Below are positions 18,038 through 52,333 of a stretch of DNA of 64,000 bases, one piece after another. The number at the start of each line of letters is the position of its first letter. Position 1 is the stretch's first letter. The notes under the pieces were generated by a model. That model had not been told where the DNA came from, did no database searches, and saw only the letters and a list, made by a program, of their open reading frames with translations. A program made the translations under genes and the position numbers. Origin of the DNA: Octopus vulgaris (taxonomy: Eukaryota); contig OX597825.1 in NCBI GenBank assembly GCA_951406725.2, positions 80,104,001 through 80,168,000 on the forward strand, read 5' to 3'.

Positions 18038-18262
18038 TTTCAGTACTTTGATTCTGGGGACTATAACATGGCAAAAGCCAAACAGAACAACCCGTCAGCT
18101 CCTTTACCTGCATTAGAGAAACGCTATTTTCAAGATTCCTTTGGAGAGCCTATTCCCAAACCTCCAAAACCTGAAAACCTCCCTCCAAAAAAACCTCACT
18201 GTCAGACAAGCAAACTGGCCAGTGATACAGCAGCGACAGCTTCTTCTCCTTCTCCTTTATGA
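18038..18262 (+). CDS. ENSA: Endosulfine coding exon 3 (FQYFDSGDYNMAKAK...TSKLASDTAATASSPSPL*)
   Basis: Polypyrimidine tract plus CAG acceptor (18035-18037); contains the Greatwall/MASTL target motif YFDSGDYNM and TSKLA; TGA stop. Confidence 0.96.
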   Translation, partial: FQYFDSGDYNMAKAKQNNPSAPLPALEKRYFQDSFGEPIPKPPKPENLPPKKPHCQTSKLASDTAATASSPSPL

Positions 18263-29517: not shown

Positions 29518-29725
29518 CTGCAAGACAGACAAACAGGTTCGTTATTAAGAGACGGGCGACTGAATAATTGTTAGAATTTCTATACTGTTGGTGTTGAATA
29601 CAATAAAATAAACACACACATATATAAGATCGATAAAAAGGCTTCTTTTAGATGGTACTGATGGTAGAAATAAAACGAAGAATAAAAGAGATAATTAGAG
29701 ATTTATTGTAAGCCTCGTTACTCAC

Positions 29726-29728
29726 CAT
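29726..29728 (-). CDS. RPS17: RPS17 exon 1 coding part (ATG only)
   Basis: CATC-ATG|GTGAGT on the minus strand; an ATG-only first coding exon is typical of RP genes and is in phase with exon 2. Confidence 0.9.
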
Positions 29729-29850
29729 GATGGATTAATGCTGAGGAAATACGGAAAGGCCGGATGTAGAATTTGTTACCCAGAATTCAATTAAAATAAC
29801 GGGAAATAACTCCTACAGCAACCGGAAGTGAAATAAAAGAGCATGGCGCC
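29729..29850. promoter_or_regulatory. Compact bidirectional promoter: RPS17 TCT/5'TOP start plus ETS and YY1-like motifs
   Basis: Minus strand GCCTTTCCGTATTTCCTC (pyrimidine initiator, ~29759) about 30 nt before the ATG; CCGGATGT at 29760-29767, CCGGAAGTG at 29822-29830, CATGGCG at 29842-29848. Confidence 0.7.
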
Positions 29851-29923
29851 AGTCGTGTGATTGATTCATTCGTCTCTGAAAGAAAACCCGGAGAAGAAGA
29901 ACGAGGAGCAGCGACTAAGAAAG
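29845..29923 (+). other. Probable non-coding first exon of AMACR
   Basis: Purine/CpG-rich segment ending in AAG|GTAAAA at 29923/29924. The AMACR ATG exon is preceded by an acceptor (TTTCAG|AAAATG), so an upstream exon is expected, and I saw no other promoter-like island in between. Start approximate. Confidence 0.55.
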
Positions 29924-30019
29924 GTAAAACTTTTATTGTAAATTACTAAATTATAACTTACAAAGGACAAAAAAAAAAAATGAGATATTTCTATTGTGTA
30001 ACCTGACGGGGAAAGTAAA

Positions 30020-31800
30020 TAACTTTTTGTTCTGTTTCTCATATAATTATGACTTTCATAGAATTACGATCCTCACGAATGATTTTTTCCCAATTGTTCA
30101 AGGTTTTGATCTCTTTTTGTTTGTTAGCTTATTCGGCACTGTCATGCTTTTAGCTAAAAGCATGACAGTGCCGCTTATTCTTCATAAGTATGAGACATCT
30201 GTTCCTAAACTGCTATTTTATTTATGATAGGGTCGGTCCTAGAAAATATACGACATCCTCCAAGTGTCGGATGTGTGCCATGCGCATCCACCCCTTTCTG
30301 ATTAAAAAAAAATTGTCTACAAAATCCCACGTGGCGACCTTTCCGTCGATTTTCGTAAAAAACTTCTTTTTTTTTTACATATGGGCTTGCGGGAACTTTT
30401 GAAGTAATGAGAGCGAAAGAGACTAAGAGAAAGCGATTTTATGACGAGGGAAGTTCTTTTGAAGTTACCGTGCATGGGAGCATTGATGGACATGTGTGTG
30501 TGCGTGTGTTTGATGGGGTGTGGGAGACAGACAGTATGTTGTGTAAGTGAAGTGCTTCTGTTAGTGTGTGTGAAGAGACAGAGAGAGTAATGTGTGAAAG
30601 AGAGAGATAACTGAAAAACGAAGACACACATACATGCATACAATGTGATAATGTTCCAATAATCATTCAGGTTTTGGCTTCTGAATGAGACCCGTGTTCA
30701 AAAATAGTCCTAAAAAGGTCAAGATCAAGGATATTGTCGGCTGAGAGGACAACTTTGGCCACTGACTGAACCTGCTTTGTGGCGAAAGTCCATCGCCCTG
30801 GCCCCGAACTTGGTGTTCTTCTGCCATCTTGTCCATTGCCTTTGTAGCATACTTTTTCGTGAAGTCAATCAGAAAGAAGTCAAGTGGTTGCTTTGTCCTC
30901 TGAAGGTTGATCAACAATCCCCAACCAGGGACCAACACCTTGCCCTTCACCTTCATCGCTACTACTGTCCTCATTGTCATGTTCACATAATTCACCTTCA
31001 TCATTGCTGCTTTCAATGTGCTCAAAGTTCACCGAAAAAGTCACCTTCTGACAGCATATACATGCCTGAAACATCACTCTTGTCACCATAATCACTATTA
31101 GAGTCAAGGCCAGGATCATGGAATCACTCAACTGAAAATATCAAGCTTTGGAGATCGTAGAAGCAAGCATAGCACAGAATACGAACTCACGACAAATGCT
31201 AAATCTTCATGCACACAAAAATATAGGGAATTGTTGTATTCATTTGGAAAGAGATTGCATGATGAATAATTAAGCCATCTTTCGGCTGAAATTTAATGTT
31301 GTACAATTTTTGAAATTCTGATAATCTCTTTCCAATTAAGAATTATGGTAAGTTAATTGACTATTTGAATCTGAATTTTTGTTCTTTTTATTTCAATAAA
31401 ACGGGTGGGTGTTCTTGGCTCGCTTTGCTTCGATCATTTTCAAAGAATCGGTTTTTATATTTTGTCACAAATTAGATACTTGTAACTAGTAACAGCAGGG
31501 AGGCCTAAGTCATTTTCTTTCACTAGTTAAGATATACTACTTATACACAGAGCAGGGTTTAATATGGTGTCTAGTCTTAGATCTTGTGACTTCATATATT
31601 TTTGTATTATTTATTTTGCAGATAGTTTCTATAACACTCTTACTACTTGTGATTTGCAGCTATGTAATCCTATCATATGGTTCTTCTTTTGTGTTCAATA
31701 AATTACAGTTTTTTTGGTTTTTTTGAAAATCAATAATATTGTGGCCTGTCAACCTGTGCCTGATGGCCACAATCATGGCCTGTCACACTTAATGTGTTAA
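30020..31800 (-). mobile_element. Degenerate piggyBac-like element, longest copy and source of the array core
   Basis: Minus-strand acidic tract (ESSNDEGELCEHDNEDSSSDEGEG) followed by PLDFFLIDF...YA...FLGLFLNTGLIQKP, typical of PGBD transposases; candidate end CACTTAATGTG-TTAA at 31786-31800 with subterminal GGCCTGTCA repeats. Confidence 0.65.
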
Positions 31801-32199
31801 AGTCGACACTGCTCCGCTAAACGCAGAAAATTTCTGTCTCACTATCAGCCAAAATGCACAAATTTTTTTATTTTTAAACCTCTGTAACTTTTTCTTCTAA
31901 TTTTTTTCTCCAAAGCATCATACCTTCATAGCAATTAGACTGAAAGACTTTATTATACCTGATTTTCAGATCTTTTACTGCCTTTTAAAACATGTATACT
32001 TTGTGAATGAAAAATCTATAGTCATTCAAGCAACGCTAACAATACAAAGGTTAGCCAGAAAAACACGAGTGAACTATATAATTCCAACAGAACATAATGC
32101 TTGTGCTCTATTACCAAAAGAGGGAACAGGAAGACAAACTACAAAACCCTTCAGGTAGATGGCCCTTCTCGACCTGTAGGAAAGGTGTAGGTAGAAACT

Positions 32200-32689
32200 C
32201 TATAAGATGTACCCAGTGTAAGCTATGGACACATAAGAGGTGCAGCAATATCAAAGGAAGGCTAACTGGGAAGACAGTTTTGTATGTGGCAAATGCTCAG
32301 ATGCTATAAACACTGAAAATGTGCAGAGAACAGCTTCTGTCACATTCCAGGGAGAAAAACTTGAAGTAGTTGATAGCTTCTGTAACTTAATGGACCAAGT
32401 AAATAGCAGGGGTGGATGCTCTGAAAGTGTAGCTTCTAGAATAAGAATAGCCTGAGCAAAGTTCAGAGAGATGCTACCTCTGCTGGTGACTTGGTCCCCT
32501 AGGTAACGGAAGCTATCAACTACTTGTAGTTTTTCTCCCAGGAATGTGACAGAAGCTGTTCTCTGCACATTTTCAGTGTTTATAGCATCTGAGCATTTGC
32601 CACATACAAAACTGTCTTCCCAGTTAGCTTTCCTTTGATATTGCTGCACCTCTTATGTGTCCATAGCTTACACTGGGTACATCTTATAG
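32200..32689. repeat. RTE-derived long inverted repeat, copy 1 (core orientation A)
   Basis: 32200-~32415 is the reverse complement of ~32475-32689, with a ~60-nt spacer. Confidence 0.95.
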
Positions 32690-34166
32690 TGAAAAACTTT
32701 TTGTACTGCTTCTCATATAATTGTCTTTCATAGAATTACGACCATGACGAAAGATTTTTTTTCCCCAATTGTTCAAGGTTTTGCTGTGTTTTTGTTACAA
32801 CACCTTGCCCTTCCCCTTCACTGCTGCTTTCAATGTGCTCAAAGTTTACCGAAAAGTCACCCTCTGACAGCATATACATGCCTGAAACATCACTCTTGTC
32901 ACCATAATCACTATTACTCAAGGCCAGGATCCATGGAATCACTCAAATGCAAAATAAACTGAATTGTTGTATTCATTTGGAAAGAGATTGCATGATGAAT
33001 AATTAAGCCATCTTTCGGCTGAAATTTAATGTTGTACAATTTTTGAAATTCTGATAATCTCTTTCCAATTAAGAATTATAGATATCAATTAGATTCTATT
33101 TTGTATATTGTTACAAGAGAGCTTTTGTGTTTTCTGGCCAATGAGATTGTCTTCAAAGTAAGGAGAGAAATCATCTTTGTTTATACAAATACATCTTTGA
33201 AATGTCTGTATAGTTGCCAAAAGCAAGATGATGAACATATAAATTGTAATTGCTGAATATGTAGTCATGATACCAGTATGTCATAGTGGCTGCTTTGTCC
33301 TCTGAAGGTTGATCAACAATCCCCAACCAGGGACCAACACCTTGCCCTTCACCTTCATCTACTACTGCCCTCATTGTCATGTTCACATAATTCACCTCCA
33401 TCATTGCTGCTTTCAATGTGCTCAAAGTTCACCGAAAAAGTCACCTTCTGACAGCATATACATGCCTGAAACATCACTCTTGTCACCATAATCACTATTA
33501 GAGTCAAGGCCAGGATCCATGGAATCACTCAAATGCAAAATAAACTGAAAATATCAAGCTTTGGAGATCGTAGAAGCAAGCATAGCACAGAATACGAACT
33601 TGCGACAAACGCTAAATCTTCATGCACACAAAAATATAGGGAATTGTTGTATTCATTTGGAAAGAGATTGCATGATGAATAATTAAGCCATCTTTCGGCT
33701 GAAATTTAATGTTGTACAATTTTTGAAATTCTGATAATCTCTTTCCAATTAAGAATTATGGTAAGTTAATTGACTATTTGAATCTGAATTTTTGTTCTTT
33801 TTATTTCAATAAAACGGGTGGGTGTTCTTGGCTCACTTTGCTTAGATCATTTTCAAAGAATCGGTTTTTTCTCCAAGGCATCATACCTTCATAGCAATTA
33901 GACTGAAAGACTTTATTATACCTGATTTTCAGATCTTTTACTGCCTTTTAAAACATGTATACTTTGTGAATGAAAAATCTATAGTCATTCAAGCAACGCT
34001 AACAATACAAAGGTTAGCCAGAAAAACACGAGTGAACTATATAATTCCAACAGAACATAATGCTTGTGCTCTATTACTAAAAGAGGGAACAGGAAGACAG
34101 GCAAACTACAAATCCCTTCAGGTAGATGGCCCTTCTCGACCTGTAGGAAAGGTGTAGGTAGAAACT

Positions 34167-34656
34167 CTATAAGATGTACCCAGTGTGAGCTATGGACACA
34201 TAAGAGGTGCAGCAATATCAAAGGAAGGCTAACTGGGAAGACAGTTTTGTATGTGGCAAATGCTCAGATGCTATAAACACTGAAAATGTGCAGAGAACAG
34301 CTTCTGTCACATTCCAGGAAGAAAAAACTACAAGTAGTTGATAGCTTCCGTTACCTAGGGGACCAAGTCACCAGCAGAGGTAGGATCTCTCTGAACTTTG
34401 CTCAGGCTATTCTTATTCTAGCAGCTACACTTTCAGAGCATCCACCCCTGCTACTGACTTGGTCCATTAAGTTACAGAAGCTATCAACTACTTCAAGTTT
34501 TTCTCCCTGGAATGTGTCAGAAGCTGTTCTCTGCACATTTTCAGTGTTTATAGCATCTGAGCATTTGCCACATACAAAACTGTCTTCCCAGTTAGCCTTC
34601 TTTGATATTGGTGCACCTCTTATGTGTCCATAGCTCACACTGGGTACATCTTATAG
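34167..34656. repeat. RTE-derived long inverted repeat, copy 2 (core orientation B)
   Basis: Same arms; centre reads ...CTCTGAACTTTGCTCAGGCTATTCTTATTC..., the reverse complement of the copy 1 centre. Confidence 0.95.
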
Positions 34657-36188
34657 TGAAATACTTTTTGTACTGCTTCGCTATTTTATATAATTATGTC
34701 TTTCATAGAATTACGACCCTGACGAAAGATTTTTTCCCCAATTGTTCAAGGTTTTTGCTGTGTTTTTGTTAGAACACCTTGCCCTTCACCTTCATCGCTA
34801 CTACTGTCCTCAATGTCATGTTCACATAATTCACCTCCATCATTGCTGCTTTCAATGTGCTCAAAGTTCACCGAAAAAGTCACCTTCTGACAGCATATAC
34901 ATGCCTGAAACATCACTCTTGTCACCATAATCACTATTACTCAAGGCCAGGATCCATGGAATCACTCAAATGCAAAATAAACTGAATTGTTGTATTCATT
35001 TGGAAAGAGATTGCATGATGAATAATTAAGCCATCTTTCGGCTGAAATTTAATGTTGTACAATTTTTGAAATTCTGATAATCTCTTTCCAATTAAGAATT
35101 ATAGATATCAATTAGATTCTATTTTGTATATTGTTACAAGAGAGCTTTTGTGTTTTCTGGCCAATGAGGTTGTCTTCAAAGTAAGGAGAGAAATCATCTT
35201 TGTTTATACAAATACATCTTTGAAATGTCTGTATAGTTGCCAAAAGCAAGATGATGAACATATAAATTGTAATTGCTGAATATGTAGTCATGATACCAGT
35301 ATGTCATAGTGGCTGCTTTGTCCTCTGAAGGTTGATCAACAATCCCCAACCAGGGACCAACACCTTGCCCTTCACCTTCATTTACTACTGCCCTCATTGT
35401 CATGTTCACATAATTCACCTCCATCATTGCTGCTTTCAATGTGCTCAAAGTTCACCGAAAAGTCACCCACTGACAGCATATACATGCCTGAAACATCACT
35501 CTTGTCACCATAATCACTATTAGAGTCAAGGCCAGGATCCATGGAATCACTCAAATGCAAAATAAACTGAAAATATCAAGCTTTGGAGATCGTAGAAGCA
35601 AGCATAGCACAGAATATGAACTCACGACAAACGCTAAATCTTCATGCACACAAAAATATAGGGAATTGTTGTATTCATTTGGAAAGAGATTGCATGATGA
35701 ATAATTAAGCCATCTTTCGGCTGAAATTTAATGTTGTACAATTTTTGAAATTCTGATAATCTCTTTCCAATTAAGAATTATGGTAAGTTAATTGACTATT
35801 TGAATCTGAATTTTTGTTCTTTTTATTTCAATAAAACGGGTGGGTGTTCTTGGCTCACTTTGCTTAGATCATTTTCAAAGAATCGGTTTTTTCTCCAAGG
35901 CATCATACCTTCATAGCAATTAGACTGAAAGACTTTATTATACCTGATTTTCAGATCTTTTACTGCCTTTTAAAACATGTATACTTTGTGAATGAAAAAT
36001 CTATAGTCATTCAAGCAACGCTAACAATACAAAGGTTAGCCAGAAAAACACGAGTGAACTATATAATTCCAACAGAACATAATGCTTGTGCTCTATTACT
36101 AAAAGAGGGAACAGGACGACAGACAAACTACAAATCCCTTCAGGTAGATGGCCCTTCTCGACCTGTAGGAAAGGTGTAGGTAGAAACT

Positions 36189-36678
36189 CTATAAGATGTA
36201 CCCAGTGTGAGCTATGGACACATAAGAGGTGCAGCAATATCAAAGGAAGGCTAACTGGGAAGACAGTTTTGTATGTGGCAAATGCTCAGATGCTATAAAC
36301 ACTGAAAATGTGCAGAGAACAGCTTCTGTCACATTCCAGGAAGAAAAAACTACAAGTAGTTGATAGCTTCCGTTACCTAGGGGACCAAGTCACCAGCAGA
36401 GGTAGGATCTCTCTGAACTTTGCTCAGGCTATTCTTATTCTAGCAGCTACACTTTCAGAGCATCCACCCCTGCTACTGACTTGGTCCATTAAGTTACAGA
36501 AGCTATCAACTACTTCAAGTTTTTCTCCCTGGAATGTGTCAGAAGCTGTTCTCTGCACATTTTCAGTGTTTATAGCATCTGAGCATTTGCCACATACAAA
36601 ACTGTCTTCCCAGTTAGCCTTCTTTGATATTGGTGCACCTCTTATGTGTCCATAGCTCACACTGGGTACATCTTATAG
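36189..36678. repeat. RTE-derived long inverted repeat, copy 3 (core orientation B)
   Basis: Essentially identical to copy 2. Confidence 0.95.
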
Positions 36679-38073
36679 TGAAATACTTTTTGTACTGCTT
36701 CGCTATTTTATATAATTATGTCTTTCATAGAATTACGACCCTGACGAAAGATTTTTTCCCCAATTGTTCAAGGTTTTTGCTGTGTTTTTGTTAGAACACC
36801 TTGCCCTTCACCTTCATCGCTACTACTGTCCTCAATGTCATGTTCACATAATTCACCTCCATCATTGCTGCTTTCAATGTGCTCAAAGTTCACCGAAAAA
36901 GTCACCTTCTGACAGCATATACATGCCTGAAACATCACTCTTGTCACCATAATCACTATTAGAGTCAAGGCCAGGATCCATGGAATCACTCAAATGCAAA
37001 ATAAACTGAAAATATCAAGCTTTGGAGATCGTAGAAGCAAGCATAGCACAGAATACGAACTCGCGACAAACGCTAAACCTTCATGCACACAAAAATATAG
37101 GGAATTGTTGTATTCATTTGGAAAGAGATTGCATGATGAATAATTAAGCCATCTTTCGGCTGAAATTTAATGTTGTACAATTTTTGAAATTCTGATAATC
37201 TCTTTCCAATTAAGAATTATGGTAAGTTAATTGACTATTTGAATCTGAATTTTTGTTCTTTTTATTTCAATAAAACGGGTGGGTGTTCTTGGCTCGCTTT
37301 GCTTCGATCATTTTCAAAGAATCGGTTTTTATATTTTGTCACAAATTAGATACTTGTAACTAGTAACAGCAGGGAGGCCTCTGTCATTTTCTTTCACTAG
37401 TTAAGATATACTACTTATACACAGAGCAGGGTTTAATATGGTGTCTAGTCTTAGATCTTGTGACTTCATATATTTTTGTATTATTTATTTTGCAGATAGT
37501 TTCTATAACACTCTTACTACTTGTGATTTGCAGCTATGTAATCCTATCATATGGTTCTTCTCTTGTGTTCAATAAATTACAGTTTTTTTGGTTTTTTTGA
37601 AAATCGATATTATTGTGGCCTGTCAACCTGTGCCTGATGGCCACAATCATGGCCTGTCACACTTAATGTGTTAAAGTCGACACTGCTCCGCTAAACGCAG
37701 AAAATTTCTGTCTCACTATCAGCCAAAATGCACAAATTTTTTTATTTTTAAACCTCTGTAACTTTTTCTTCTAATTTTTTTCTCCAAAGCATCATACCTT
37801 CATAGCAATTAGACTGAAAGACTTTATTATACCTGATTTTCATATCTTTTACTGCCTTTTAAAACATGTATACTTTGTGAATGAAAAATCTATAGTCATT
37901 CAAGCAACGCTAACAATACAAAGGTTAGCCAGAAAAACACGAGTGAACTATATAATTCCAACAGAACATAATGCTTGTGCTCTATTACCAAAAGAGGGAA
38001 CAGGAAGACAAACTACAAAACCCTTCAGGTAGATGGCCCTTCTCGACCTGTAGGAAAGGTGTAGGTAGAAACT

Positions 38074-38563
38074 CTATAAGATGTACCCAGTGTAAGCTAT
38101 GGACACATAAGAGGTGCAGCAATATCAAAGGAAGGCTAACTGGGAAGACAGTTTTGTATGTGGCAAATGCTCAGATGCTATAAACACTGAAAATGTGCAG
38201 AGAACAGCTTCTGACACATTCCAGGGAGAAAAACTTGAAGTAGTTGATAGCTTCTGTAACTTAATGGACCAAGTAAATAGCAGGGGTGGATGCTCTGAAA
38301 GTGTAGCTTCTAGAATAAGAATAGCCTGAGCAAAGTTCAGAGAGATCCTACCTTTGCTGGTGACTTGGTCCCCTAGGTAACGGAAGCTATCAACTACTTG
38401 TAGTTTTTCTCCCTGGAATGTGACAGAAGCTGTTCTCTGCACATTTTCAGTGTTCATAGCATCTGAGCATTTGCCACATACAAAACTGTCTTCCCAGTTA
38501 GCTTTCCTTTGATATTGCTGCACCTCTTATGTGTCCATAGCTTACACTGGGTACATCTTATAG
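38074..38563. repeat. RTE-derived long inverted repeat, copy 4 (core orientation A)
   Basis: Centre oriented as in copy 1. Confidence 0.95.
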
Positions 38564-40525
38564 TGAAAAACTTTTTGTACTGCTTCTCATATAATTGTCT
38601 TTCATAGAATTATGACCATGACGAAAGATTTTTTTTTCCCAATTGTTCAAGGTTTTTGCTGTGTTTTTGTTAGAACACCTTGCCCTTCCCCTTCATTGCT
38701 GCTTTCAATGTGCTCAAAGTTTACCGAAAAGTCACCCTCTGACAGCATATACACGCCTGAAACATCGCTCTTGTCACCATAATCACTATTACAGTCAAGG
38801 CCAGGATCCATGGAATCACTCCAATGCAAAATAAACTGAAAATATCAAGCTTTGGAGATCGTAGAAGCAAGCATAGCACAGAATACGAACTCGCGACAAA
38901 CGCTAAATCTTCATGCACACAAAAATATAGGGAATTGTTGTATTCATTTGGAAAGAGATTGCATGATGAATAATTAAGCCATCTTTCGGCTGAAATTTAA
39001 TGTTGTACAATTTTTGAAATTCTGATAATCTCTTTCCAATTAAGAATTATGGTAAGTTAATTGACTATTTGAATCTGAATTTTTGTTCTTTTTATTTCAA
39101 TAAAACGGGTGGGTGTTCTTGGCTCACTTTGCTTAAATCAGTTTCAAAGAATCGGTTTTTATATTTTATCACAAATTAGATACTTGTAACTAGTAACAGC
39201 AGGGAGGCCTAAGTCATTTTCTTTCACTAGTTAAGATATACTACTTATACACAGAGCAGGGTTTAATATGGTGTCTAGTTTTAGATCTTGTGACTTCATA
39301 TATTTTTGTATTATTTATTTTGCAGATAGTTTCTATAACACTCTTACTACTTGTGATTTGCAGCTATGTAATCCTATCATATGGTTCTTCTTTTGTGTTC
39401 AATAAATTACAGTTTTTTTTTTGTTTTTTTTTTTGAAAATCAATAATATTGTTATATAAGTGAATTGAGCATGTTTGGAACAGAACTGATGACATAAGTA
39501 TTTCACTGGTTTTTGGATGGAGATTTTATGATGATTTTTTTCGGCTGAACCAGAATGATTCATAATCTTCCGAATTCTGATGGTCCCTTCCAAATAGTAT
39601 AACATTTTATGCTAAAGGTAGAACTTAGTAGTCGCTTTATATTGTCCTCAGTTTCCTGTGTTTCGTTAAGATAGGAATTTGTTTACAGGTCAACTGGATA
39701 TAAATTAGATTCTATTTTGTATATTGTTACAAGAGAGCTTTTGTGTTTTCTGGCCAATGAGGTTGTCTTCAAACTAAGGAGAGAAATCATCTTTGTTTAT
39801 ACAAATACATCTTTGAAATGTCTGTATAGTTGCCAAAAGCAGGATGATGAACATATAAATTGTAATTGCTGAATATGTAGTCATGATACCAGTATGTCAT
39901 AGTTACGCTGACTGCTTTTCAGTATATTGTTTACCCATGCAAACCACAGCCACACGCACGCTAATGAGGACAACATGAAACCTTCAAATCTCTTTGGAAA
40001 TTTCTGTGAGTGTTCATACATTCAGAATTACAAAAAACATCTAAAAATATGTTATTACCTATCATTTCATGGAAAATAAATATCTATATTTTACCATCGC
40101 TACTACTGCCCTCATTGTCATGTTCACATAATTTACCTCCATCATTGCTGCTTTCAATGTGCTCAAAGTTCACCAAAAAGTCACCCTCTGACAGCATATA
40201 CACGCCTGAAACATCACTCTTGTCACCATAATCACTATTAGAGTCAAGGCCAGGATCCATTGAATCACTCCAAATGCAAAATAAACTGAAAATATCAAGC
40301 TTTGGAGATCGTAGAAGCAAGCATAGCACAGAATACGAACTTGCGACAAACGCTAAATCTTCATGCACACAAAAATATAGGGAATTGTTGTATTCATTTG
40401 GAAAGAGATTGCATGATGAATAATTAAGCCATCTTTCGGCTGAAATTTAATGTTGTACAATTTTTGAAATTCTGATAATCTCTTTCCAATTAAGAATTAT
40501 GGTAAGTTAATTGACTATTTGAATC

Positions 40526-41373
40526 TCTTCTGGATGTGTAATGTCAGCGTGCATACACAACAGAGTGTAAGCACCCTGAGAGAAAAGTTGGATTTAAGAA
40601 GCATCAGATGTGGTGTGCAAGAGAGACGGCTGCACTGGTATAGTTATGTGTTGCGAATGAATGAGGACAGATGTGTGAAAAAGTGTCACACCCTAGCAGT
40701 TAAGGGAACCTGTGGAAGAGGTAGACCCAGGAAAACCTGGGATGAGGTGGTGAAGCACAACCTTTAAACATTGGGCCTCACCAAGGCACTGACAAGTGAC
40801 CGAGACCTTTGGAGATATGCTGTGCTTGCGAAGACCCGGCAAGTCGAGACCATAACAATTGCCTATGCCAGTGCTGTATAACCAGCCCATTTAAGATTAC
40901 CCTTCAATCATTGGACAATAAACTATGCTTGCGAAGACCTGTTGAGGTAAGTGAAATTGCTGTCATGGCCAATGACAGTACCACTTGATAAGCACCAGTG
41001 TCACGATTAGAAGCACAATTCGAGCGTGATTGTTGCCAGGCCCGCTGACTGGCTCCTGTGCCAGTGGCACGTACAAAAGAACTATTCTAGTGTGGTCATT
41101 GCCAGTGCCGCCAGACTGGCTCCTGTGCAGATAGCACATAAAAAGCTCTATTTGAGCATAGCCAATGCCAGTACCGCCTGACTGGCCCTCGTTCCAGTGG
41201 TACGTAAAAGTACCAACTATGCTCTCAGAGTGGTTGGCGTTAGGAAGGGCATCCAGCTGTAGAAACTTTGCAGATCAGATTGGAGACTGGTGCAGACTTC
41301 TGGCTCACCAGCCCTCAGTCAAACTGTCCAACCCATGCCAGCATGGAAAGCGGACATTAAATGATGATGGTGA
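40526..41373 (+). mobile_element. RTE LINE 3' end (repeated in each B unit: ~43172, 45970, 48735)
   Basis: WMCNVSV...LREKLDLRSIRCGVQERRLHWY...GRGRPRKTWDEVVK plus the 3' tail ending ATGATGATG. Confidence 0.9.
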
Positions 41374-41651
41374 TGTTAACAGTTGTAAGCTTGACAATGA
41401 AATATTATGCTTTTCAATAGACTTCAAGACCAATTTGTTGCATATCAGTCTGTTTCTGTTATCTTTTGCTGTTTATATAATCAGGTCAGCACTGATACCA
41501 AGAAGGTACTCGTTCAAAGTTCTTTTTGTCTTTCATTTTGTGAAGAAATCCAGATTGTGGAAGTAAGAAAGCAGTTATATTTTTTCTTCATTTTGCATTA
41601 CTTGTATTGCATATATTTGTGTATTTATATATATATATATGTATGTGTGTT

Positions 41652-41716
<65 letters not shown>

Positions 41717-41801
41717 ATGCGTACATATATATTTATATATATGTATATATACATATATGTATGTACATATATATATGTACAATTTCATATATATATGTAT
41801 A

Positions 41802-42243
41802 CTAGCAGTATTGCCCAGCTCAACGGGGATTTCAGGGGAGAGTTTCAGGGAGTCGCTGACGATGTATCATGATGATCTAAAATTTGGTTAAAGTGATTCA
41901 AACTGCAGACTCAACGCAAAATGGTCACATATCTTGATTTTTTTTTTTTTTTTCATGCAATTTACGCATGCTTGCACGCGTGGTGAACACAGTTCATGTC
42001 AAACAGCTGACTGAGTAAAGTTTCCTATTCAATGCATGGGATAAGGCCTAAACAAACACATCGATGTTTCACTTGCAAGATGAATTTCGGAACAGAAATA
42101 GCGCAGTTCAATTTTCATTCGCCTAAACTTTAAGTGACCCATTTTTGGTGGTTCTACAATTTGTTGGCTAGGAGGAGATGTGCCAGGAAGTTAAGCACAC
42201 AGATACACACACAGACACACAAGTTGAGTTTTATATATATAGA
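41802..42243 (-). mobile_element. Non-autonomous Helitron (also 44456-45046, 47224-47810, 50238-50826)
   Basis: Minus strand A|TCTATATATATAAAACTC...(GT)-rich leader...CTAG|T: 5'-TC, 3'-CTAG, inserted at AT with no TSD. The first copy has a ~150-bp internal deletion. Confidence 0.7.
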
Positions 42244-44293
42244 TATGTATGTTGTTTGTGTGTGTGTATATCATCATCATCATCGTTTAGCGTCCGCTTT
42301 CCATGCTGGCATGGGTTGGACGGTGCAACTGGGGTCTGGGAAGCCAGAAGGCTGCACCAAACCCAGTCTGATCTGGCAATGTTTCTACGGCTGGATGCCC
42401 TTCCTATCGCCAACCACTCCATGAGTGTAGTGGGTGCTTTTTACGTGCCAGACGAGGCTGGCAAACGGCCACGATCAGATGGTGCCTTTTACATGCCATT
42501 GGCACGTATATATATAGTGTCTTCTAAAATAGGCTCGGGCTGACCAAGTTACGCTGACTGCTTTTCGGTATATTGTTTACCCATGCAAACCACAGCCACA
42601 CGCACGCTAATGAGGACAACATGAAACCTTCAAATCTCTTTGGAAATTTCTGTGAGTGTCCGTACATTCAGAATTACAAAAAACATCTAAAAATATGTTA
42701 TTACCTATCATTTCATGGAAAATAAATATCTATATTTTACCATCGCTACTACTGCCCTCATTGTCATGTTCACATAATTTACCTCCATCATTGCTGCTTT
42801 CAATGTGCTCAAAGTTCACCGAAAAAGTCACCTTCTGACAGCATATACATGCCTGAAACATCACTCTTGTCACCATAATCACTATTAGAGTCAAGGCCAG
42901 GATCCATGGAATCACTCCAATGCAAAATAAACTGAAAATATCAAGCTTTGGAGATCGTAGAAGCAAGCATAGCACAGAATACGAACTTGCGACAAACGCT
43001 AAATCTTCATGCACACAAAAATATAGGGAATTGTTGTATTCATTTGGAAAGAGATTGCATGATGAATAATTAAGCCATCTTTCGGCTGAAATTTAATGTT
43101 GTACAATTTTTTAAATTCTGATAATCTCTTTCCAATTAAGAATTATGGTCAGTTAATTGACTATTTGAATCTCTTCTGGATGTGTAATGTCAGCGTGCAT
43201 ACACAACAGAGTGTAAGCACCCTGAGAGAAAAGTTGGATTTAAGAAGCATCAGATGTGGTGTGCAAGAGAGACGGCTGCACTGGTATAGTTATGTGTTGC
43301 GAATGAATGAGGACAGATGTGTGAAAAAGTGTCACACCCTAGCAGTTAAGGGAACCTGTGGAAGAGGTAGACCCAGGAAAACCTGGGATGAGGTGGTGAA
43401 GCACAACCTTTAAACATTGGGCCTCACCAAGGCTCTGACAAGTGACCGAGACCTTTGGAGATATGCTGTGCTTGCGAAGACCCGGCAAGTCGAGACCATA
43501 ACAATTGCCTATGCCAGTGCTGTATAACCAGCCCATTTAAGATTACCCTTCAATCATTGGACAATAAACTATGCTTGCGAAGACCTGTTGAGGTAAGTGA
43601 AATTGCTGTCGTGGCCAATGACAGTACCACTTGATAGGCACCAGTGTCACGACTAGAAGCACAATTCGAGCGTGATTGTTGCCAGGGCCGCTGACTGGCT
43701 CCTGTGCCAGTGGAACGTGCAAAAGAACTATTCTAGTGTGGTCATTGCCAGTGCCGCCAGACTGGCTCCTGTGCAGATAGCACATAAAAAGCTCTATTTG
43801 AGCATAGCCAATGCCAGTACCGCCTGACTGGCCCTCGTTCCAGTGGTACGTAAAAGTACCAACTATGCTCTCAGAGTGGTTGGCATTAGGAAGGGCATCC
43901 AGCTGTAGAAACTTTGCAGATCAGATTGGAGACTGGTGCAGACTTCTGGCTCACCAGCCCTCAGTCAAACTGTCCAACCCATGCCAGCATGGAAAGCAGA
44001 CATTAAATGATGATGGTGATGTTAACAGTTGTAAGCTTGACAATGAAATATTATGCTTTTCAATAGACTTCAAGACCAATTTGTTGCATATCAGTCTGTT
44101 TCTGTTATCTTTTGCTGTTTATATAATCAGGTCAGCACTGATACCAAGAAGGTACTCGTTCAAAGTTCTTTTTGTCTTTCATTTTGTGAAGAAATCCAGA
44201 TTGTGGAAGTAAGAAAGCAGTTATATTTTTTCTTCATTTTGCATTACTTGTATTGCATATATTTGTGTCTTAATATATATATGTATGTGTTTT

Positions 44294-44350
<57 letters not shown>

Positions 44351-44377
44351 ATGCGTACATATATATTTATATATATG

Positions 44378-44415
<38 letters not shown>

Positions 44416-47091
44416 TATATGTACATATATGTACAATTTCATATATATATGTATACTAGTACTATTGCTTGTTCAGCACAACGGGGATTTCAGGGGAGAG
44501 TTTCAGGGAGTCGCTGACGATGTATCATGATGATCTAAAATTTGGTTAAAGTGATTCAAAATGCAGACTCAACGCAAAATGGTCACATTTAATTCAAAGC
44601 GTTAAAAATGTTATGAAAACAATTGGTATGCGTTCACAAAGTTCAAACGATTAATACAAAAAACCCTCCAGGCTACATCCTGAAAATTCATATTCTTTGC
44701 CGAATTTCTACAATGTTTACAGCGATTCGTTTTTATATCTTGATTTTTTTTTTTTTCATGCAATTTACGCATGCTTGCACGCGTGGTGAACACAGTTCAT
44801 GTCAAACAGCTGACTGAGTAAAGTTCCCTATTCAATGCATGGGATAAGGCCTAAACAAACACATCGATGTTTCACTTGCAAGATGAATTTCGGAACAGAA
44901 ATAGCGCAGTTCAATTTTCATTCGCCTAAACTTTAAGTGACCCATTTTTGGTGGTTCTACAATTTGTTGGCTAGGAGGAGATGTGCCAGGAAGTTAAGCA
45001 CACAGATACACACACAGACACACAAGTTGAGTTTTATATGTATAGATATGTATGTTGTTTGTGTGTGTGTATATCATCATCATCGTTTAGCATCTGCTTT
45101 CCATGCTGGCATGGGTTGGACGGTGCAACTGGGGTTTGGGAAGCCAGAAGGTTGCACCAGACCCAGTCTGATCTGGCAATGTTTCTACGGCTGGATGCCC
45201 TTCCTAACGCCAACCACTCCATGAGTGTAGTGGGTGCTTTTTACGTGCCAGACGAGGCTGGCAAACGGCCACGATCGGATGGTGCCTTTTACATGCCACT
45301 GGCACGTATATATATAGTGTCTTCTAAAATAGGCTCGGGCTGACCAAGTTACGCTGACTGCTTTTCGGTATATTGTTTACCCATGCAAACCACAGCCACA
45401 CGCACGCTAATGAGGACAACATGAAACCTTCAAATCTCTTTGGAAATTTCTGTGAGTGTCCGTACATTCAGAATTACAAAAAACATCTAAAAATATGTTA
45501 TTACCTATCATTTCATAGAAAATAAATATCTATATTTTACCATCGCTACTACTGCCCTCATTGTCATGTTCACATAATTTACCTCCATCATTGCTGCTTT
45601 CAATGTGCTCAAAGTTCACCGAAAAGTCACCCTCTGACAGCATATACATGCCTGAAACATCACTCTTGTCACCATAATCACTATTAGAGTCAAGGCCAGG
45701 ATCCATGGAATCACTCAAATGCAAAATAAACTGAAAATATCAAGCTTTGGAGATCGTAGAAGCAAGCATAGCACAGAATACGAACTTGCGACAAACGCTA
45801 AATCTTCATGCACACAAAATATAGGGAATTGTTGTATTCATTTGGAAAGAGATTGCATGATGAATAATTAAGCCATCTTTCGGCTGAAATTTAATGTTGT
45901 ACAATTTTTGAAATTCTGATAATCTCTTTCCAATTAAGAATTATGGTCAGTTAATTGACTATTTGAATCTCTTCTGGATGTGTAATGTCAGCGTGCATAC
46001 ACAACAGAGTGTAAGCACCCTGAGAGAAAAGTTGGATTTAAGAAGCATCAGATGTGGTGTGCAAGAGAGACGGCTGCACTGGTATAGTTATGTGTTGCGA
46101 ATGAATGAGGACAGATGTGTGAAAAAGTGTCACACCCTAGCAGTTAAGGGAACCTGTGGAAGAGGTAGACCCAGGAAAACCTGGGATGAGGTGGTGAAGC
46201 ACAACCTTTAAACATTGGGCCTCACCAAGGCTCTGACAAGTGACCGAGACCTTTGGAGATATGCTGTGCTTGCGAAGACCCGGCAAGTCGAGACCATAAC
46301 AATTGCCTATGCCAGTGCTGTATAACCAGCCCATTTAAGATTACCCTTCAATCATTGGACAATAAACTATGCTTGCGAAGACCTGTTGAGGTAAGTGAAA
46401 TTGCTGTCGTGGCCAATGACAGTACCACTTGATAGGCACCAGTGTCACGACTAGAAGCACAATTCGAGCGTGATTGTTGCCAGGGCCGCTGACTGGCTCC
46501 TGTGCCAGTGGAACGTGCAAAAGAACTATTCTAGTGTGGTCATTGCCAGTGCCGCCAGACTGGCTCCTGTGCAGATAGCACATAAAAAGCTCTATTTGAG
46601 CATAGCCAATGCCAGTACCGCCTGACTGGCCCTCGTTCCAGTGGTACGTAAAAGTACCAACTATGCTCTCAGAGTGGTTGGCATTAGGAAGGGCATCCAG
46701 CTGTAGAAACTTTGCAGATCAGATTGGAGACTGGTGCAGACTTCTGGCTCACCAGCCCTCAGTCAAACTGTCCAACCCATGCCAGCATGGAAAGCAGACA
46801 TTAAATGATGATGGTGATGTTAACAGTTGTAAGCTTGACAATGAAATATTATGCTTTTCAATAGACTTCAAGACCAATTTGTTGCATATCAGTCTGTTTC
46901 TGTTATCTTTTGCTGTTTATATAATCAGGTCAGCACTGATACCAAGAAGGTACTCGTTCAAAGTTCTTTTTGTCTTTCATTTTGTGAAGAAATCCAGATT
47001 GTGGAAGTAAGAAAGCAGTTATATTTTTTCTTCATTTTGCATTACTTGTATTGCATATATTTGTGTCTTAATATATATATGTATGTGTTTT

Positions 47092-47142
<51 letters not shown>

Positions 47143-49839
47143 ATGCGTACATATATATTTATATATATGTATATATACATATATGTATGTACATATATGT
47201 ACAATTTCATATATATATGTATACTAGTACTATTGCTTGGCACAACGGGGATTTCAGGGGAGAGTTTCAGGGAGTCGCTGACGATGTATCATGATGATCT
47301 AAAATTTGGTTAAAGTGATTCAAAATGCAGACTCAACGCAAAATGGTCACATTTAATTCAAAGCGTTAAAAATGTTATGAAAACAATTGGTATGCGTTCA
47401 CAAAGTTCAAACGATTAATACAAAAAACCCTCCAGGCTACATCCTGAAAATTCATATTCTTTGCCGAATTTCTACAATGTTTACAGCGATTCGTTTTTAT
47501 ATCTTGATTTTTTTTTTTTTCATGGAATTTACGCATGCTTGCACGCGTGGTGAACACAGTTCATGTCAAACAGCTGACTGAGTAAAGTTCCCTATTCAAT
47601 GCATGGGATAAGGCCTAAACAAACACATCGATGTTTCACTTGCAAGATGAATTTCGGAACAGAAATAGCGCAGTTCAATTTTCATTCGCCTAAACTTTAA
47701 GTGACCCATTTTTGGTGGTTCTACAATTTGTTGGCTAGGAGGAGATGTGCCAGGAAGTTAAGCACACAGATACACACACAGACACACAAGTTGAGTTTTA
47801 TATGTATAGATATGTATGTTGTTTGTGTGTGTGTATATCATCATCATCGTTTAGCATCCGCTTTCCATGCTGGCATGGGTTGGACGGTGCAACTGGGGTT
47901 TGGGAAGCCAGAAGGTTGCACCAGACCCAGTCTGATCTGGCAATGTTTCTACGGCTGGATGCCCTTCCTAACGCCAACCACTCCATGAGTGTAGTGGGTG
48001 CTTTTTACGTGCCAGACGAGGCTGGCAAACGGCCACGATCGGATGGTGCCTTTTACATGCCACTGGCACGTATATATATAGTGTCTTCTAAAATAGGCTC
48101 GGGCTGACCAAGTTACGCTGACTGCTTTTCGGTATATTGTTTACCCATGCAAACCACAGCCACACGCACGCTAATGAGGACAACATGAAACCTTCAAATC
48201 TCTTTGGAAATTTCTGTGAGTGTCCGTACATTCAGAATTACAAAAAACATCTAAAAATATGTTATTACCTATCATTTCATAGAAAATAAATATCTATATT
48301 TTACCATCGCTACTACTGCCCTCATTGTCATGTTCACATAATTTACCTCCATCATTGCTGCTTTCAATGTGCTCAAAGTTCACCGAAAAGTCACCCTCTG
48401 ACAGCATATACATGCCTGAAACATCACTCTTGTCACCATAATCACTATTAGAGTCAAGGCCAGGATCCATGGAATCACTCAAATGCAAAATAAACTGAAA
48501 ATATCAAGCTTTGGAGATCGTAGAAGCAAGCATAGCACAGAATACGAACTCACGACAAACGCTAAATCTTCATGCACACAACAATATAGGGAATTGTTGT
48601 ATTCATTTGGAAAGAGATTGCATGATGAATAATTAAGCCATCTTTCGGCTGAAATTTAATGTTGTACAATTTTTGAAATTCTGATAATCTCTTTCCAGTT
48701 AAGAATTATGGTCAGTTAATTGACTATTTGAATCTCTTCTGGATGTGTAATGTCAGCGTGCATACACAACAGAGTGTAAGCACCCTGAGAGAAAAGTTGG
48801 ATTTAAGAAGCATCAGATGTGGTGTGCAAGAGAGACGGCTGCACTGGTATAGTTATGTGTTGCGAATGAATGAGGACAGATGTGTGAAAAAGTGTCACAC
48901 CCTAGCAGTTAAGGGAACCTGTGGAAGAGGTAGACCCAGGAAAACCTGGGATGAGGTGGTGAAGCACAACCTTTAAACATTGGGCCTCACCAAGGCTCTG
49001 ACAAGTGACCGAGACCTTTGGAGATATGCTGTGCTTGCGAAGACCCGGCAAGTCGAGACCATAACAATTGCCTATACCAGTGCTGTATAACCAGCCCATT
49101 TAAGATTACCCTTCAATCATTGGACAATAAACTATGCTTGCGAAGACCTGTTGAGGTAAGTGAAATTGCTGTCGTGGCCAATGACAGTACCACTTGATAG
49201 GCACCAGTGTCAGTGGAACATTAGAAGCATGATTCGAGTGTGATTGTTGCCAGGGCCGCTGACTGGCTCCTGTGCCAGTGGCACGTACAAAAGAACTATT
49301 CTAGTGTGGTCATTGCCAGTGCCGCCAGACTGGCTCCTGTGCAGATAGCACATAAAAAGCTCTATTTGAGCATAGCCAATGCCAGTACCGCCTGACTGGC
49401 CCTCGTTCCAGTGGTACGTAAAAGTACCAACTATGCTCTCAGAGTGGTTGGCATTAGGAAGGGCATCCAGCAGTAGAAACTTTGCAGATCAGATTGGAGA
49501 CTGGTGCAGACTTCTGGCTCACCAGCCCTCAGTCAAACTGTCCAACCCATGCCAGCATGGAAAGCGGACATTAAATGATGATGGTGATGTTAACAGTTGT
49601 AAGCTTGACAATGAAATATTATGCTTTTCAATAGACTTCAAGACCAATTTGTTGCATATCAGTCTGTTTCTGTTATCTTTTGCTGTTTATATAATCAGGT
49701 CAGCACTGATACCAAGAAGGTACTCGTTCAAAGTTCTTTTTGTCTTTCATTTTGTGAAGAAATCCAGATTGTGGAAGTAAGAAAGCAGTTATATTTTTTC
49801 TTCATTTTGCATTACTTGTATTGCATATATTTGTGTATT

Positions 49840-50236
49840 TATATATATGTATGTGTGTTTGTGTGTATGTATGTATATATATGTGTGTGTGTGTGTATGT
49901 GTACATATATATTTATATATGTGTATATATATATTTATATATGTGTACATATATATTTATATATGTGTATATATATATTTATATATGTGTACATATATAT
50001 TTATATATGTGTACATATATATTTATATATGTGTACATATATATTTATATATGTGTACATATATATTTATATACGTATACATATATATTTATATATGTAT
50101 ACATATATATTGATATGTGTGTATATATACATATATGTGTATATATACATATACATATATGTGTATATATACATATACTTATATGTGTATATATGTATGT
50201 ACATATACATATGTACAATTTCATATATATATGTAT
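49840..50236. repeat. Expanded microsatellite with ~22-bp higher-order unit (ATATATTTATATATGTGTACAT)
   Basis: Visible; much longer than the orthologous tracts in units B1-B3. Confidence 0.9.
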
Positions 50237-51094
50237 ACTAGTACTATTGCTTGGCACAACGGGGATTTCAGGGGAGAGTTTCAGGGAGTCGCTGACGATG
50301 TATCATGATGATCTAAAATTTGGTTAAAGTGATTCAAACTGCAGACTCAACGCAAAATGGTCACATTTAATTCAAAGCGTTAAAAATGTTATGAAAACAA
50401 TTGGTATGCCTTCACAAAGTTCAAACGATTAATACGAAAAAACCCTCCAGGCTACGTCTCGAAAATTCATTTCTTTGCCGAATTTCTACAATGTTTACAG
50501 CGATTCGTTTTTACATCTTGATTTTTTTTTTTTTTTCATGCAATTTACGCATGCTTGCACGCGTGGTGAACACAGTTCATGTCAAACAGCTGACTGAGTA
50601 AAGTTCACTATTCAATGCATGGGATAAGGCCTAAACAAACACATCAATGTTTCACTTGCAAGATGAATTTCGGAACAGAAATAGCGCAGTTCAATTTTCA
50701 TTCGCCTAAACTTTAAGTGACCCATTTTTGGTGGTTCTACAATTCGTTGGCTAGGAGGAGGTGTGCCAGGAAGTTAAGCACACAGATACACACACAGACA
50801 CACAAGTTGAGTTTTATATATATAGATATGTATGTTGTTTGTGTGTGTGTATATCATCATCATCGTTTAGCGTCCGCTTTCCATGCTGGCATGGGTTGGA
50901 CGGTGCAACTGGGGTCTGGGAAGCCAGAAGGCTGCACCAGACCCAGTCTGATCTGGCAATGTTTCTACGGCTGGATGCCCTTCCTAACGCCAACCACTCC
51001 ATGAGTGTAGTGGGTGCTTTTTACGTGCCAGACGAGGCTGGCAAACGGCCACGATCGGATGGTGCCTTTTACATGCCACTGGCACGTATATATA

Positions 51095-51395
51095 TAGTGT
51101 CTTCTAAAATAGGCTCGGGCTGACCAAAGCCTTGAGAGTGGATTTGGTAGACGGAAACTGAAAGAAGCCCATCGTATATATATATCATCATCATCATCAT
51201 CATCGTTTATGATGATGATGATATATATATATGTGTGTGTATGGTTTGTGCCCCCAACATCGCTTGACAATCGATGCTGGTGTATTTACATCCCTATAAC
51301 TTAGCGCTTCGGCAAAAGAGAACGATAGAATAAGGACTAGGCTTACAAAAAATAAGTCCTGGGGTCGATATGCTCGATTAAAGGCGGTGCTCCAG
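51095..51395 (+). mobile_element. SINE-like element (GACCAAAGCCTTG.GAGTGGATTTGGTAGACGGAAACTG family)
   Basis: Related copies at 53820-54260 (-), 61795-62105 (+) and 6210-6350 (-). Confidence 0.7.
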
Positions 51396-51760: not shown

Positions 51761-52225
51761 TACATTTTTACAAGTAAATGTTATCAGGAATTGTATTAAA
51801 AAATTGTTAAAGTATTTTGTGTTTTGTCGAGGTATGAGCAATTTATTGCTCATAAGCTTTAAGATCAAGATCTAATATGGAACGCCTCCCCACCACCGGG
51901 TCATGTGGACCTTGGTTGAGAACTGCTGCATTGAATGATGATGATGATGATAGAATCCTACTACTATCTTCAATAGTACAGGAAGCAATGATATGGCTGT
52001 CTGTGATAAGCACCGATGCTTGTTTAAACTGTTGCTTGATTAGCCAAAGCTTATCAAGAACCAAATAACAAGAAATGTATTTTCATCATATGATTTCTGT
52101 TTTAACTGCTTCAATATTCTAAAGAAGGCCCTTCCCAACACCAACCACCTTACAGAGTGGACATAGCCAATGCTCCAAAATGAATTACTTCTGGATCTTA
52201 TTGAATATTTTTTCACTTTCAGAAA

Positions 52226-52333
52226 ATGGCTCTGAAAGGATTGACAGTTTTGGAGTTTGCTGGCCTGGCACCAGCACCATTCTGTGGAATGATTATGGCA
52301 GATTTTGGAGCCAGAGTGATTAGAATAGACCGT
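52226..52333 (+). CDS. AMACR: Alpha-methylacyl-CoA racemase, coding exon 1 ([36 protein letters not shown])
   Basis: CaiB/BaiF (CoA-transferase III) N-terminus; acceptor at 52221-52222, donor GTGAGT at 52334. Missed by the ORF track. Confidence 0.95.

What the first reader, a model, noticed from the sequence alone, without database searches (positions are those of the whole stretch)
32200..38563. Invertible core: the hairpin centre is flipped in copies 2/3 relative to copies 1/4
Seen: all four 490-bp inverted repeats have the same outer flanks in the same orientation. The central ~200 bp reads ...CTTGAAGTAG...CTGTAACTTAATGGACC...GAATAAGAATAGCCTGAGCAAAGTTCAGAG... in copies 1 and 4 and the reverse complement in copies 2 and 3 (ORF 32251-32649 on - shares its peptide with 34286-34633 on +). 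Established: crossover between inverted repeats inverts the intervening DNA (flip-flop). Inference: at least one inversion occurred during array growth, and both states are preserved side by side (A-B-B-A). It may still be flipping somatically or be polymorphic. No recombinase is encoded here.
Basis: partly seen in the sequence, partly recalled or inferred. Interest (0 to 1): 0.72.

Follow-up and report, generated by a model that had tools for sequence, protein, structure and literature searches.

The report
Flipped core in retrotransposon hairpin array
Four neighbouring copies of a 490-base mirror repeat made of retrotransposon debris carry their middle in two orientations (A-B-B-A), which is likely the trace of one past flip by ordinary DNA repair rather than a working genetic switch.

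Summary
Four 490-bp hairpins (32200, 34167, 36189, 38074) have same-direction flanks; copies 1/4 differ from copies 2/3 at 58-59 places read forward but only 12-13 read reversed. The hairpin is a piece of an abundant octopus-type LINE reverse-transcriptase gene, folded back at the LINE's own short inverted repeat. A fifth, short-armed copy about 171 kb away has the orientation of copies 2/3, so copies 1/4 are probably the flipped ones, opposite to the title's framing. Orientation follows the flank-defined lineages exactly, so one inversion suffices. The arms also copied each other: site 21 changed in both arms of copies 2/3, and two array-specific changes sit in all eight arms. Spacer inversion with arm homogenisation between inverted repeats is well known (yeast template switching, primate microinversions, Y palindromes). 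No recombinase domain was found in 104 of 118 long frames scanned. Ongoing or somatic flipping has no support and could not be tested: only assembled short contigs were available, and none phases a flank with a core. Verdict: real, ordinary, a tidy small record of a known process.

The parts
32200..32689 (.). Hairpin copy 1, orientation A (probably derived)
34167..34656 (.). Hairpin copy 2, orientation B (same as the outside copy L003)
36189..36678 (.). Hairpin copy 3, orientation B, identical to copy 2
   Evidence: 0 differences
38074..38563 (.). Hairpin copy 4, orientation A, 5 differences from copy 1
32128..32490 (+). LINE reverse-transcriptase fragment (end of RT, PHD-like finger, downstream region) read in sense in copy 1; begins about 70 bp left of the hairpin
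   Evidence: family identified
32200..32360 (+). Outer left arm of copy 1 (161 bp; 2 differences from the right arm)
32529..32689 (-). Outer right arm of copy 1; ends at a junction found 4 times in G000, once per copy
32362..32527 (.). Smallest certainly inverted segment in copy 1: two diverged inner arms (16 differences in 64 columns) and the loop
32399..32490 (+). The LINE's own imperfect inverted repeat (two 17-nt boxes, 58-nt loop); the fold-back junction lies at its downstream box (about 32480-32496)
34187..34187 (+). Site 21, left arm of copy 2: G where copies 1/4, the source and 11 of 12 dispersed copies have A; mirrored at 34636; same in copy 3 (36209, 36658)
32629..32629 (-). Site 61, right arm of copy 1 (and 38503 in copy 4): rare letter shared with the left arm of the source L003
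31902..32199 (+). Left flank; four full-length copies found in G000; separates copies 1/4 from 2/3
32690..32800 (+). Right flank; separates copies 1/4 from 2/3; related to 30014-30121
30879..39452 (+). Irregular tandem array of about 2-kb modular units that carries the four hairpins

Best explanation
Four tandem copies of a fold-back piece of a LINE retrotransposon carry their centre in two orientations, and the difference likely goes back to a single past inversion made by ordinary homology-guided repair or polymerase template switching between the arms, with no dedicated recombinase. Steps: (1) shown: the hairpin is two head-to-head pieces of the same LINE family joined at the LINE's own short inverted repeat. 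(2) shown: a short-armed version in orientation B lies about 171 kb away inside a rearranged LINE insertion; inferred: a 443-bp piece of it, or of a shared ancestor, seeded the array. (3) inferred from shared letters: one arm was copied onto the other at least twice, once before the copies split and once in the lineage of copies 2/3. (4) inferred: the unit split into two lineages and the core flipped once, in the lineage of copies 1/4. (5) inferred: later tandem duplications gave A-B-B-A. For the flip itself I favour an intermolecular template switch or break repair at the hairpin (about 0.55) over a reciprocal intrachromatid crossover (about 0.35). It probably has no function.
For: Flip. LINE origin: relatives give RVT_1 and PHD hits; the best protein match is 88% identical and labelled Octopus bimaculoides, and many full-length relatives carry endonuclease + RT (+ PHD). 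Natural inverted repeat: 10-13 of 17 pairs in 15 dispersed copies, 15 of 17 in a sixteenth. Source: L003 1286-1727 is 95.5% identical to copies 2/3 in the same direction, and to copies 1/4 84% forward but 96% reversed; the long-arm signature occurs 5 times in G000, in the source and the four copies. Polarity: at core columns 282, 284, 317 copies 2/3 and the source keep the family letter (14, 14, 15 of 15) and copies 1/4 do not; the left flank shows the same. Lineage: both flanks split the copies {1,4} vs {2,3}. Arm-to-arm copying: site 21 is G in both arms of 2/3 (family A in 11 of 12, source A); columns 154 and 157 differ from source and family in all six arm strands aligned, and copy 3 equals copy 2. 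No recombinase domain in 104 of 118 frames of 85 aa or more. Known mechanism: PMC8604942 and PMC8755829 (passages).
Against: Orientation rests on one assembly; no read or contig joins a flank to a core. The match of orientation to lineage has a 1-in-8 chance with four copies if orientations were random. Polarity rests on one outside copy, which could itself have flipped. A two-inversion history (arm extension with a flip, then a flip back that also copied site 21) needs no more events unless site 61 is inherited; site 61 could be a parallel change (the letter occurs in 25 of 557 dispersed matches) and was picked out after the fact. Template switch and crossover plus conversion leave the same sequence here.
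Confidence: 0.75

Rival explanations
1. The core has flipped more than once: B to A when the right arm was extended by a long template switch, then A to B in the lineage of copies 2/3 by a second switch that also copied site 21 to both arms. The hairpin would be a slow recurrent toggle, possibly still polymorphic.
For: Each such switch inverts the spacer and homogenises the arms in one step (REG2 case in PMC8604942, passages), so two events cover the arm extension, the two orientations and site 21. The same paper reports reversible spacer flips.
Against: If site 61 is inherited from the source, this history needs a back-mutation. No copy has a core that disagrees with its flanks (0 of 4).
Confidence: 0.15
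2. The A orientation is an assembly or polishing artefact: the near-identical outer arms let the assembler place the core either way.
For: The outer arms are 97-99% alike over 161 bp; no raw read was available; short contigs break at the arms.
Against: Two separate copies (1 and 4, 5 differences apart) show A, each with its own lineage letters in both flanks and in the core. Site 21 lies 20 bp from unique flanks on both sides and agrees with them. A read fold-back artefact would not return to new flank sequence. G000 has 227 contigs for 2.8 Gb, which suggests long reads (inference).
Confidence: 0.07
3. A programmed or functional switch: an enzyme flips the core at a high rate in somatic cells and changes an output.
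For: None beyond the geometry. The array may lie in the first intron of a CoA-transferase III (AMACR-like) gene (inference).
Against: No recombinase domain in the frames scanned; arms are generic LINE sequence, not short specific sites; the core holds a broken LINE frame with a stop; the hairpin folds about equally in both orientations (-242.5 and -233.2 kcal/mol); the locus is confined to four copies plus the source.
Confidence: 0.02

Closest known systems
Template switching at inverted repeats in yeast (Abraham and Hazkani-Covo 2021, PMC8604942; passages read)
   Same: Spacer inversion and arm homogenisation at one inverted repeat, sometimes in one event, reversible over short evolutionary time.
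   Different: There the arms are 7-16 bp and inverted spacers a few bases, in coding DNA; here the arms are 161 bp near-perfect plus about 60 bp diverged, in LINE debris, and both states sit in one haplotype as tandem paralogues.
Human-chimpanzee microinversions flanked by inverted repeats (PMC8755829; passages read)
   Same: Precisely copied inverted segment between inverted repeats; site-specific recombinases rejected; template switch, break repair or homologous recombination proposed.
   Different: Those are 17-33 nt with 3-75 nt repeats; this one is at least 166 bp, with arms in the 50-250 bp range that the paper gives as the minimum for homologous recombination.
Y-chromosome palindrome P6 (Hallast et al. 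2013, PMC3723533; abstract and section 13 read)
   Same: Arm-to-arm conversion more frequent than inversion (56 conversions against 3 inversions in their phased set); here at least two arm-copying events against one inversion.
   Different: P6-type arms are many kilobases and above 99.9% alike; this is a 0.5-kb hairpin with no gene in the arms.
Octopus RTE-clade LINEs such as RTE-2_OV (Petrosino et al. 2022, PMC9115989; passages read)
   Same: Single-ORF endonuclease + RT LINE of about 1,100 aa with a zinc finger; relatives of this fragment have that size and layout.
   Different: Identity with RTE-2_OV was not tested (no sequence at hand); the finger here scores as PHD, the paper calls its finger C2H2; the copies here are dead fragments.
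Programmed DNA inversion switches (Hin/hix, FimB/FimE, shufflons, 2-micron FLP; recalled, from no call)
   Same: A segment between inverted repeats is found in two orientations.
   Different: No recombinase found, no short specific sites, no known cargo, no evidence of a mixed population.

Membership tests
Inverted-repeat-flanked small inversion (template switch or homology repair) | Inverted segment is a precise reverse complement | tested here: met
   12-13 differences in 491 columns reversed against 58-59 forward
Inverted-repeat-flanked small inversion (template switch or homology repair) | Flanked by near-perfect inverted repeats, outer flanks not inverted | tested here: met
   2-5 differences between outer arms over 161 bp; flanks match only on the same strand
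Inverted-repeat-flanked small inversion (template switch or homology repair) | Arm-to-arm homogenisation | tested here: met
   Site 21 in both arms of copies 2/3; columns 154 and 157 in all arms aligned but not in source or family
Inverted-repeat-flanked small inversion (template switch or homology repair) | Template switch distinguished from crossover plus conversion | tested here: inconclusive
   Both give the observed letters; breakpoints lie in near-identical sequence
Programmed invertible switch (Hin, Fim, shufflon, FLP) | Linked site-specific recombinase | tested here: not met
   104 of 118 stop-to-stop frames of 85 aa or more scanned with Pfam (14 low-complexity frames left out): only a Tc1-type helix-turn-helix, endosulfine and CoA-transferase III. 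Short exons or an unlinked enzyme would be missed.
Programmed invertible switch (Hin, Fim, shufflon, FLP) | Short specific crossover sites around a functional cargo | tested here: not met
   Arms and core are all LINE sequence with hundreds of dispersed relatives; core frame has a stop
Programmed invertible switch (Hin, Fim, shufflon, FLP) | Both orientations among molecules of one individual | not testable with these tools
   Only assembled contigs were offered; none spans an arm
Large sex-chromosome palindrome | Multi-kilobase arms above 99% alike, usually with genes | tested here: not met
   Whole hairpin 490 bp, 88% self-identity, no gene; it works like one in showing conversion and a rarer inversion
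MITE or fold-back DNA transposon | Dispersed copies with the same two ends and a target-site duplication | tested here: not met
   Right junction 4 times in G000, all in this array; LINE homology runs about 70 bp past the left end; no duplication seen at the ends
RTE-clade LINE | Endonuclease and RT in one ORF of about 1,000-1,100 aa | tested here: met
   Met in relatives, not in this fragment: PF03372 + PF00078 in many hits of 1,029-1,105 aa
RTE-clade LINE | Clade placement by RT phylogeny | not tested
   No tree built; the label RTE is recalled from the look of the peptide and from octopus papers

The most novel reading that the evidence does not exclude
The hairpin is a self-repairing toggle: the same hairpin-driven template switch repeatedly copies one arm onto the other and flips the core, often enough that orientation differs between haplotypes or cells today; and because the array may sit in the 5' intron of an AMACR-like gene, its pre-mRNA would carry four 490-nt double-stranded LINE hairpins open to editing or small-RNA processing against an abundant LINE family.
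Probability: 0.08. Interest if true: 0.5.

Novelty: new member of a known kind. Interest (0 to 1): 0.2.

Why it matters
As it stands it is a compact, datable record in an invertebrate of a known process: a source copy, an arm-copying step, a lineage split, one flip and later duplications can all be read from five copies. It shows that a LINE's own weak inverted repeat can seed a hairpin that then keeps rearranging. It opens no standing question by itself. It would matter more if long reads showed frequent flipping, since that would give a direct rate of conversion against inversion at a 0.5-kb hairpin in an animal.

Tried and rejected
Read-level test of orientation: one run search listed 24 runs, all kept as assembled contigs; no RNA holder listed. 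Seven different runs were laid in two calls (22, 24; X1 and X2 in both... X1, X2, X5, X10, then X1, X2, X7, X6, so six distinct runs of 24). Thousands of LINE-family contigs swamp the arms; no listed piece spans an arm or bridges the fold-back junction, so orientation stays untested. What they do show: an exact 262-nt contig over the left flank 31915-32176 in X1 and X2 (X1 may be the assembly's own sample), and a contig over 31880-32200 in X10 with letters of copy 4 (31969) and of copies 2/3 (32115). A 60-nt contig of organism B with one difference overlaps the long-arm signature, and a one-base shorter A-run appears in X2 and X7; neither can be assigned to the array rather than the source or the family. 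Junction search: 6 exact hits, of which 4 are the source and copies 1-3 (copy 4 is missed by one substitution), one is an uninterrupted LINE copy (L021) and one is unrelated sequence (L022); so no independent fold-back at this site was found. ADAR-type origin of the arm differences: rejected, 0 of the 6 long-arm changes at columns 243-272 is A>G or T>C. Inversion of a larger block: rejected. The two shared ORFs as a gene: rejected; no Pfam hit at 0.001. Extension of the hairpin array beyond the window: no match in the 10 kb on either side. Earlier notes near this place or like this sequence: none. Five paper searches listed nothing on this locus, but they were aimed at mechanisms, so this is no proof that it is not in print. 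No supplements were read.
Full report
Observation. The four 490-bp inverted repeats are at 32200-32689, 34167-34656, 36189-36678 and 38074-38563. Copies 1 and 4 differ at 5 places, copies 2 and 3 at none; between the pairs there are 58-59 differences forward and 12-13 reversed. The repeat finder gives the same as four 281-nt inverted pairs at 98%. The flanks match only on the same strand. The pattern A-B-B-A is therefore in the assembled sequence and far beyond chance (folding z -38 and -39).

Anatomy. Each hairpin has outer arms of 161 bp that differ at 2 (copy 1), 3 (copy 4) or 5 (copies 2, 3) places, inner arms that differ at 16 of 64 columns in copy 1, and a short loop. Because the outer arms are nearly identical, the inverted length has only a lower bound: 166 bp from the first arm-specific letters, 210 bp if site 141 is used (it travels with the long inner arm in copies 2, 3 and 4 but not in copy 1).

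What the sequence is. The arms translate to a PHD-like finger and the region after it. Dispersed relatives carry RVT_1 and PHD domains; the best protein match is 88% identical and labelled Octopus bimaculoides, and many full-length relatives have endonuclease and RT in one frame. So this is debris of an abundant non-LTR retrotransposon in an octopus-like genome of 2.8 Gb; the clade name RTE is recalled and was not tested by a tree. The LINE has its own imperfect inverted repeat, 10-13 of 17 pairs around a 58-59 nt loop in 15 dispersed copies and 15 of 17 in a sixteenth, L021. The fold-back junction of the hairpin sits at the downstream box of this repeat. The two inner arms differ from each other (12 of 89) at least as much as dispersed copies do on average (10%), so they may come from two templates or from one with a mutation cluster; this is not resolved.

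Source and polarity. A DNA search of G000 (40 of 2905 candidates scored) gave one more full-length match, L003, about 171 kb from copy 1. A pattern specific to the long arm occurs 5 times in G000: L003 and the four copies. The right junction occurs 4 times and the left flank 4 times in full, all in the array. L003 1286-1727 matches copies 2/3 in the same direction at 95.5% over 443 bp, and copies 1/4 at 84% forward and 96% reversed. Its right arm is short, and it lies in a LINE insertion whose 3' part runs on the other strand. At core columns 282, 284 and 317, L003 and copies 2/3 keep the family letter while copies 1/4 do not, and in the left flank copies 1/4 lack 4 bases and have one change that L003 does not share. 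Both flanks split the copies {1,4} against {2,3}. The simplest reading is B ancestral and one flip in the lineage of copies 1/4. Divergences give the order: source to array 4.5%, A to B about 2.5%, copy 1 to 4 unit 15 substitutions in 1602, copy 2 to 3 unit 9 in 1981.

Arm-to-arm copying. Site 21 is G in both arms of copies 2/3 and A in both arms of copies 1/4, in L003 and in 11 of 12 dispersed copies. Columns 154 and 157 differ from L003 and from the family in all six arm strands aligned (copy 3 equals copy 2), so one arm was copied from the other after the split from the source. Site 141 in copy 1 may be a third case or a back-mutation. Site 61 is suggestive: the right arms of copies 1/4 share a rare letter with the left arm of L003, in each case on the side of the short inner arm; the letter is in 25 of 557 dispersed pattern matches after removing source and array hits (28 and 536 raw). 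If inherited, the breakpoints lie in the outer 60 bp, the flip covers 370 bp or more, and copies 2/3 lost the letter by conversion. It was noticed after the fact and may be a parallel change.

Mechanism. Shown: the flip, the LINE origin, the outside copy, the letters shared by both arms. Inferred: the order of events and the enzymology. Template switching between inverted repeats inverts spacers and homogenises arms, sometimes in one event and reversibly (PMC8604942, passages). [quoted passage not shown] In the Y palindrome P6 conversions outnumber inversions 56 to 3 (PMC3723533, abstract and section 13). I favour a template switch or break repair at the hairpin over a reciprocal crossover, about 0.55 to 0.35, because the arms nearly abut; the sequence cannot separate them. 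A two-flip history is possible (0.15). An assembly error is unlikely but untested (0.07).

Against an active switch. Pfam found no recombinase in 104 of 118 frames of 85 aa or more; 14 low-complexity frames were left out. The core has no intact frame. Orientation never disagrees with lineage (0 of 4), though four copies are few. Long fold-backs are common in this genome: 12 rows at 10 places, one of them the source, in 93 kb of 21 fetched loci (mostly chosen as LINE hits, some with AT-repeat centres), and two more in the window. Read data could not test flipping: six of 24 listed runs were laid, all as contigs, and none of the listed pieces joins a flank to a core.

Setting. A CoA-transferase III (AMACR-like) gene starts coding at 52226 right behind a splice-acceptor-like site, and a CpG-rich stretch with promoter-like words and a donor-like site lies at 29.0-30.5 kb (motif names recalled). 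The array may thus lie in a 5' intron, which would make the hairpins double-stranded RNA. This was not tested.

Verdict. The direction is probably the reverse of the title, arm-to-arm copying is the added finding, and nothing supports a working switch. New member of a known kind; interest 0.2.

Noticed in passing
window 29700-29930 and 52221-52330: CpG-rich stretch with promoter-like words, a donor-like site near 29925 on + and an ATG followed by a donor-like site near 29727 on -; the AMACR-like coding start at 52226 follows an acceptor-like site. Both tandem arrays (30.9-51.1 kb) may fill one 5' intron behind a two-way promoter. No RNA evidence examined.
   Followed up: partly
window 39901-51127: A second tandem array of four units of about 2.65-2.8 kb, 96-98% alike, shares a 430-bp module with the hairpin array and holds a LINE 3' end, but no hairpin.
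   Followed up: no
L021 1420-1520 (G000:C9:58206730): An uninterrupted LINE copy carries a two-base change that makes the LINE's own inverted repeat perfect over 11 bases (15 of 17 pairs against 10-13 in 15 others); it looks like a quasi-palindrome correction, here or in a parent element, and it shares one more rare letter with the short arm.
   Followed up: partly
L003 281-1727 (G000:C12:79963385-79964831): The source insertion reads sense, antisense, sense: a 5' inversion with about 60 bases missing at the joint, as in twin priming (recalled), plus the extra fold-back arm; its 3' end meets another LINE tail to tail; no target-site duplication seen.
   Followed up: partly
window 32362-32391 (long inner arm, all copies and L003): Five substitutions absent from all 15 dispersed copies lie within 30 bases next to the fold-back, a possible cluster from error-prone synthesis.
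   Followed up: no
window 30663-31140, - strand: An acidic frame followed by a stretch that recalls the start of a piggyBac-type transposase (recalled resemblance only; no Pfam hit); pieces of it recur in every array unit.
   Followed up: partly
window 15618-15788 and 55569-55704; L007, L010, L015, L019, L039: Other fold-back stretches of 130-420 bp at 72-97% identity, some probably miniature inverted-repeat elements.
   Followed up: no
window 16579-16896 (-) and 17996-18259 (+): A Tc1-type transposase fragment and an endosulfine-like exon.
   Followed up: no
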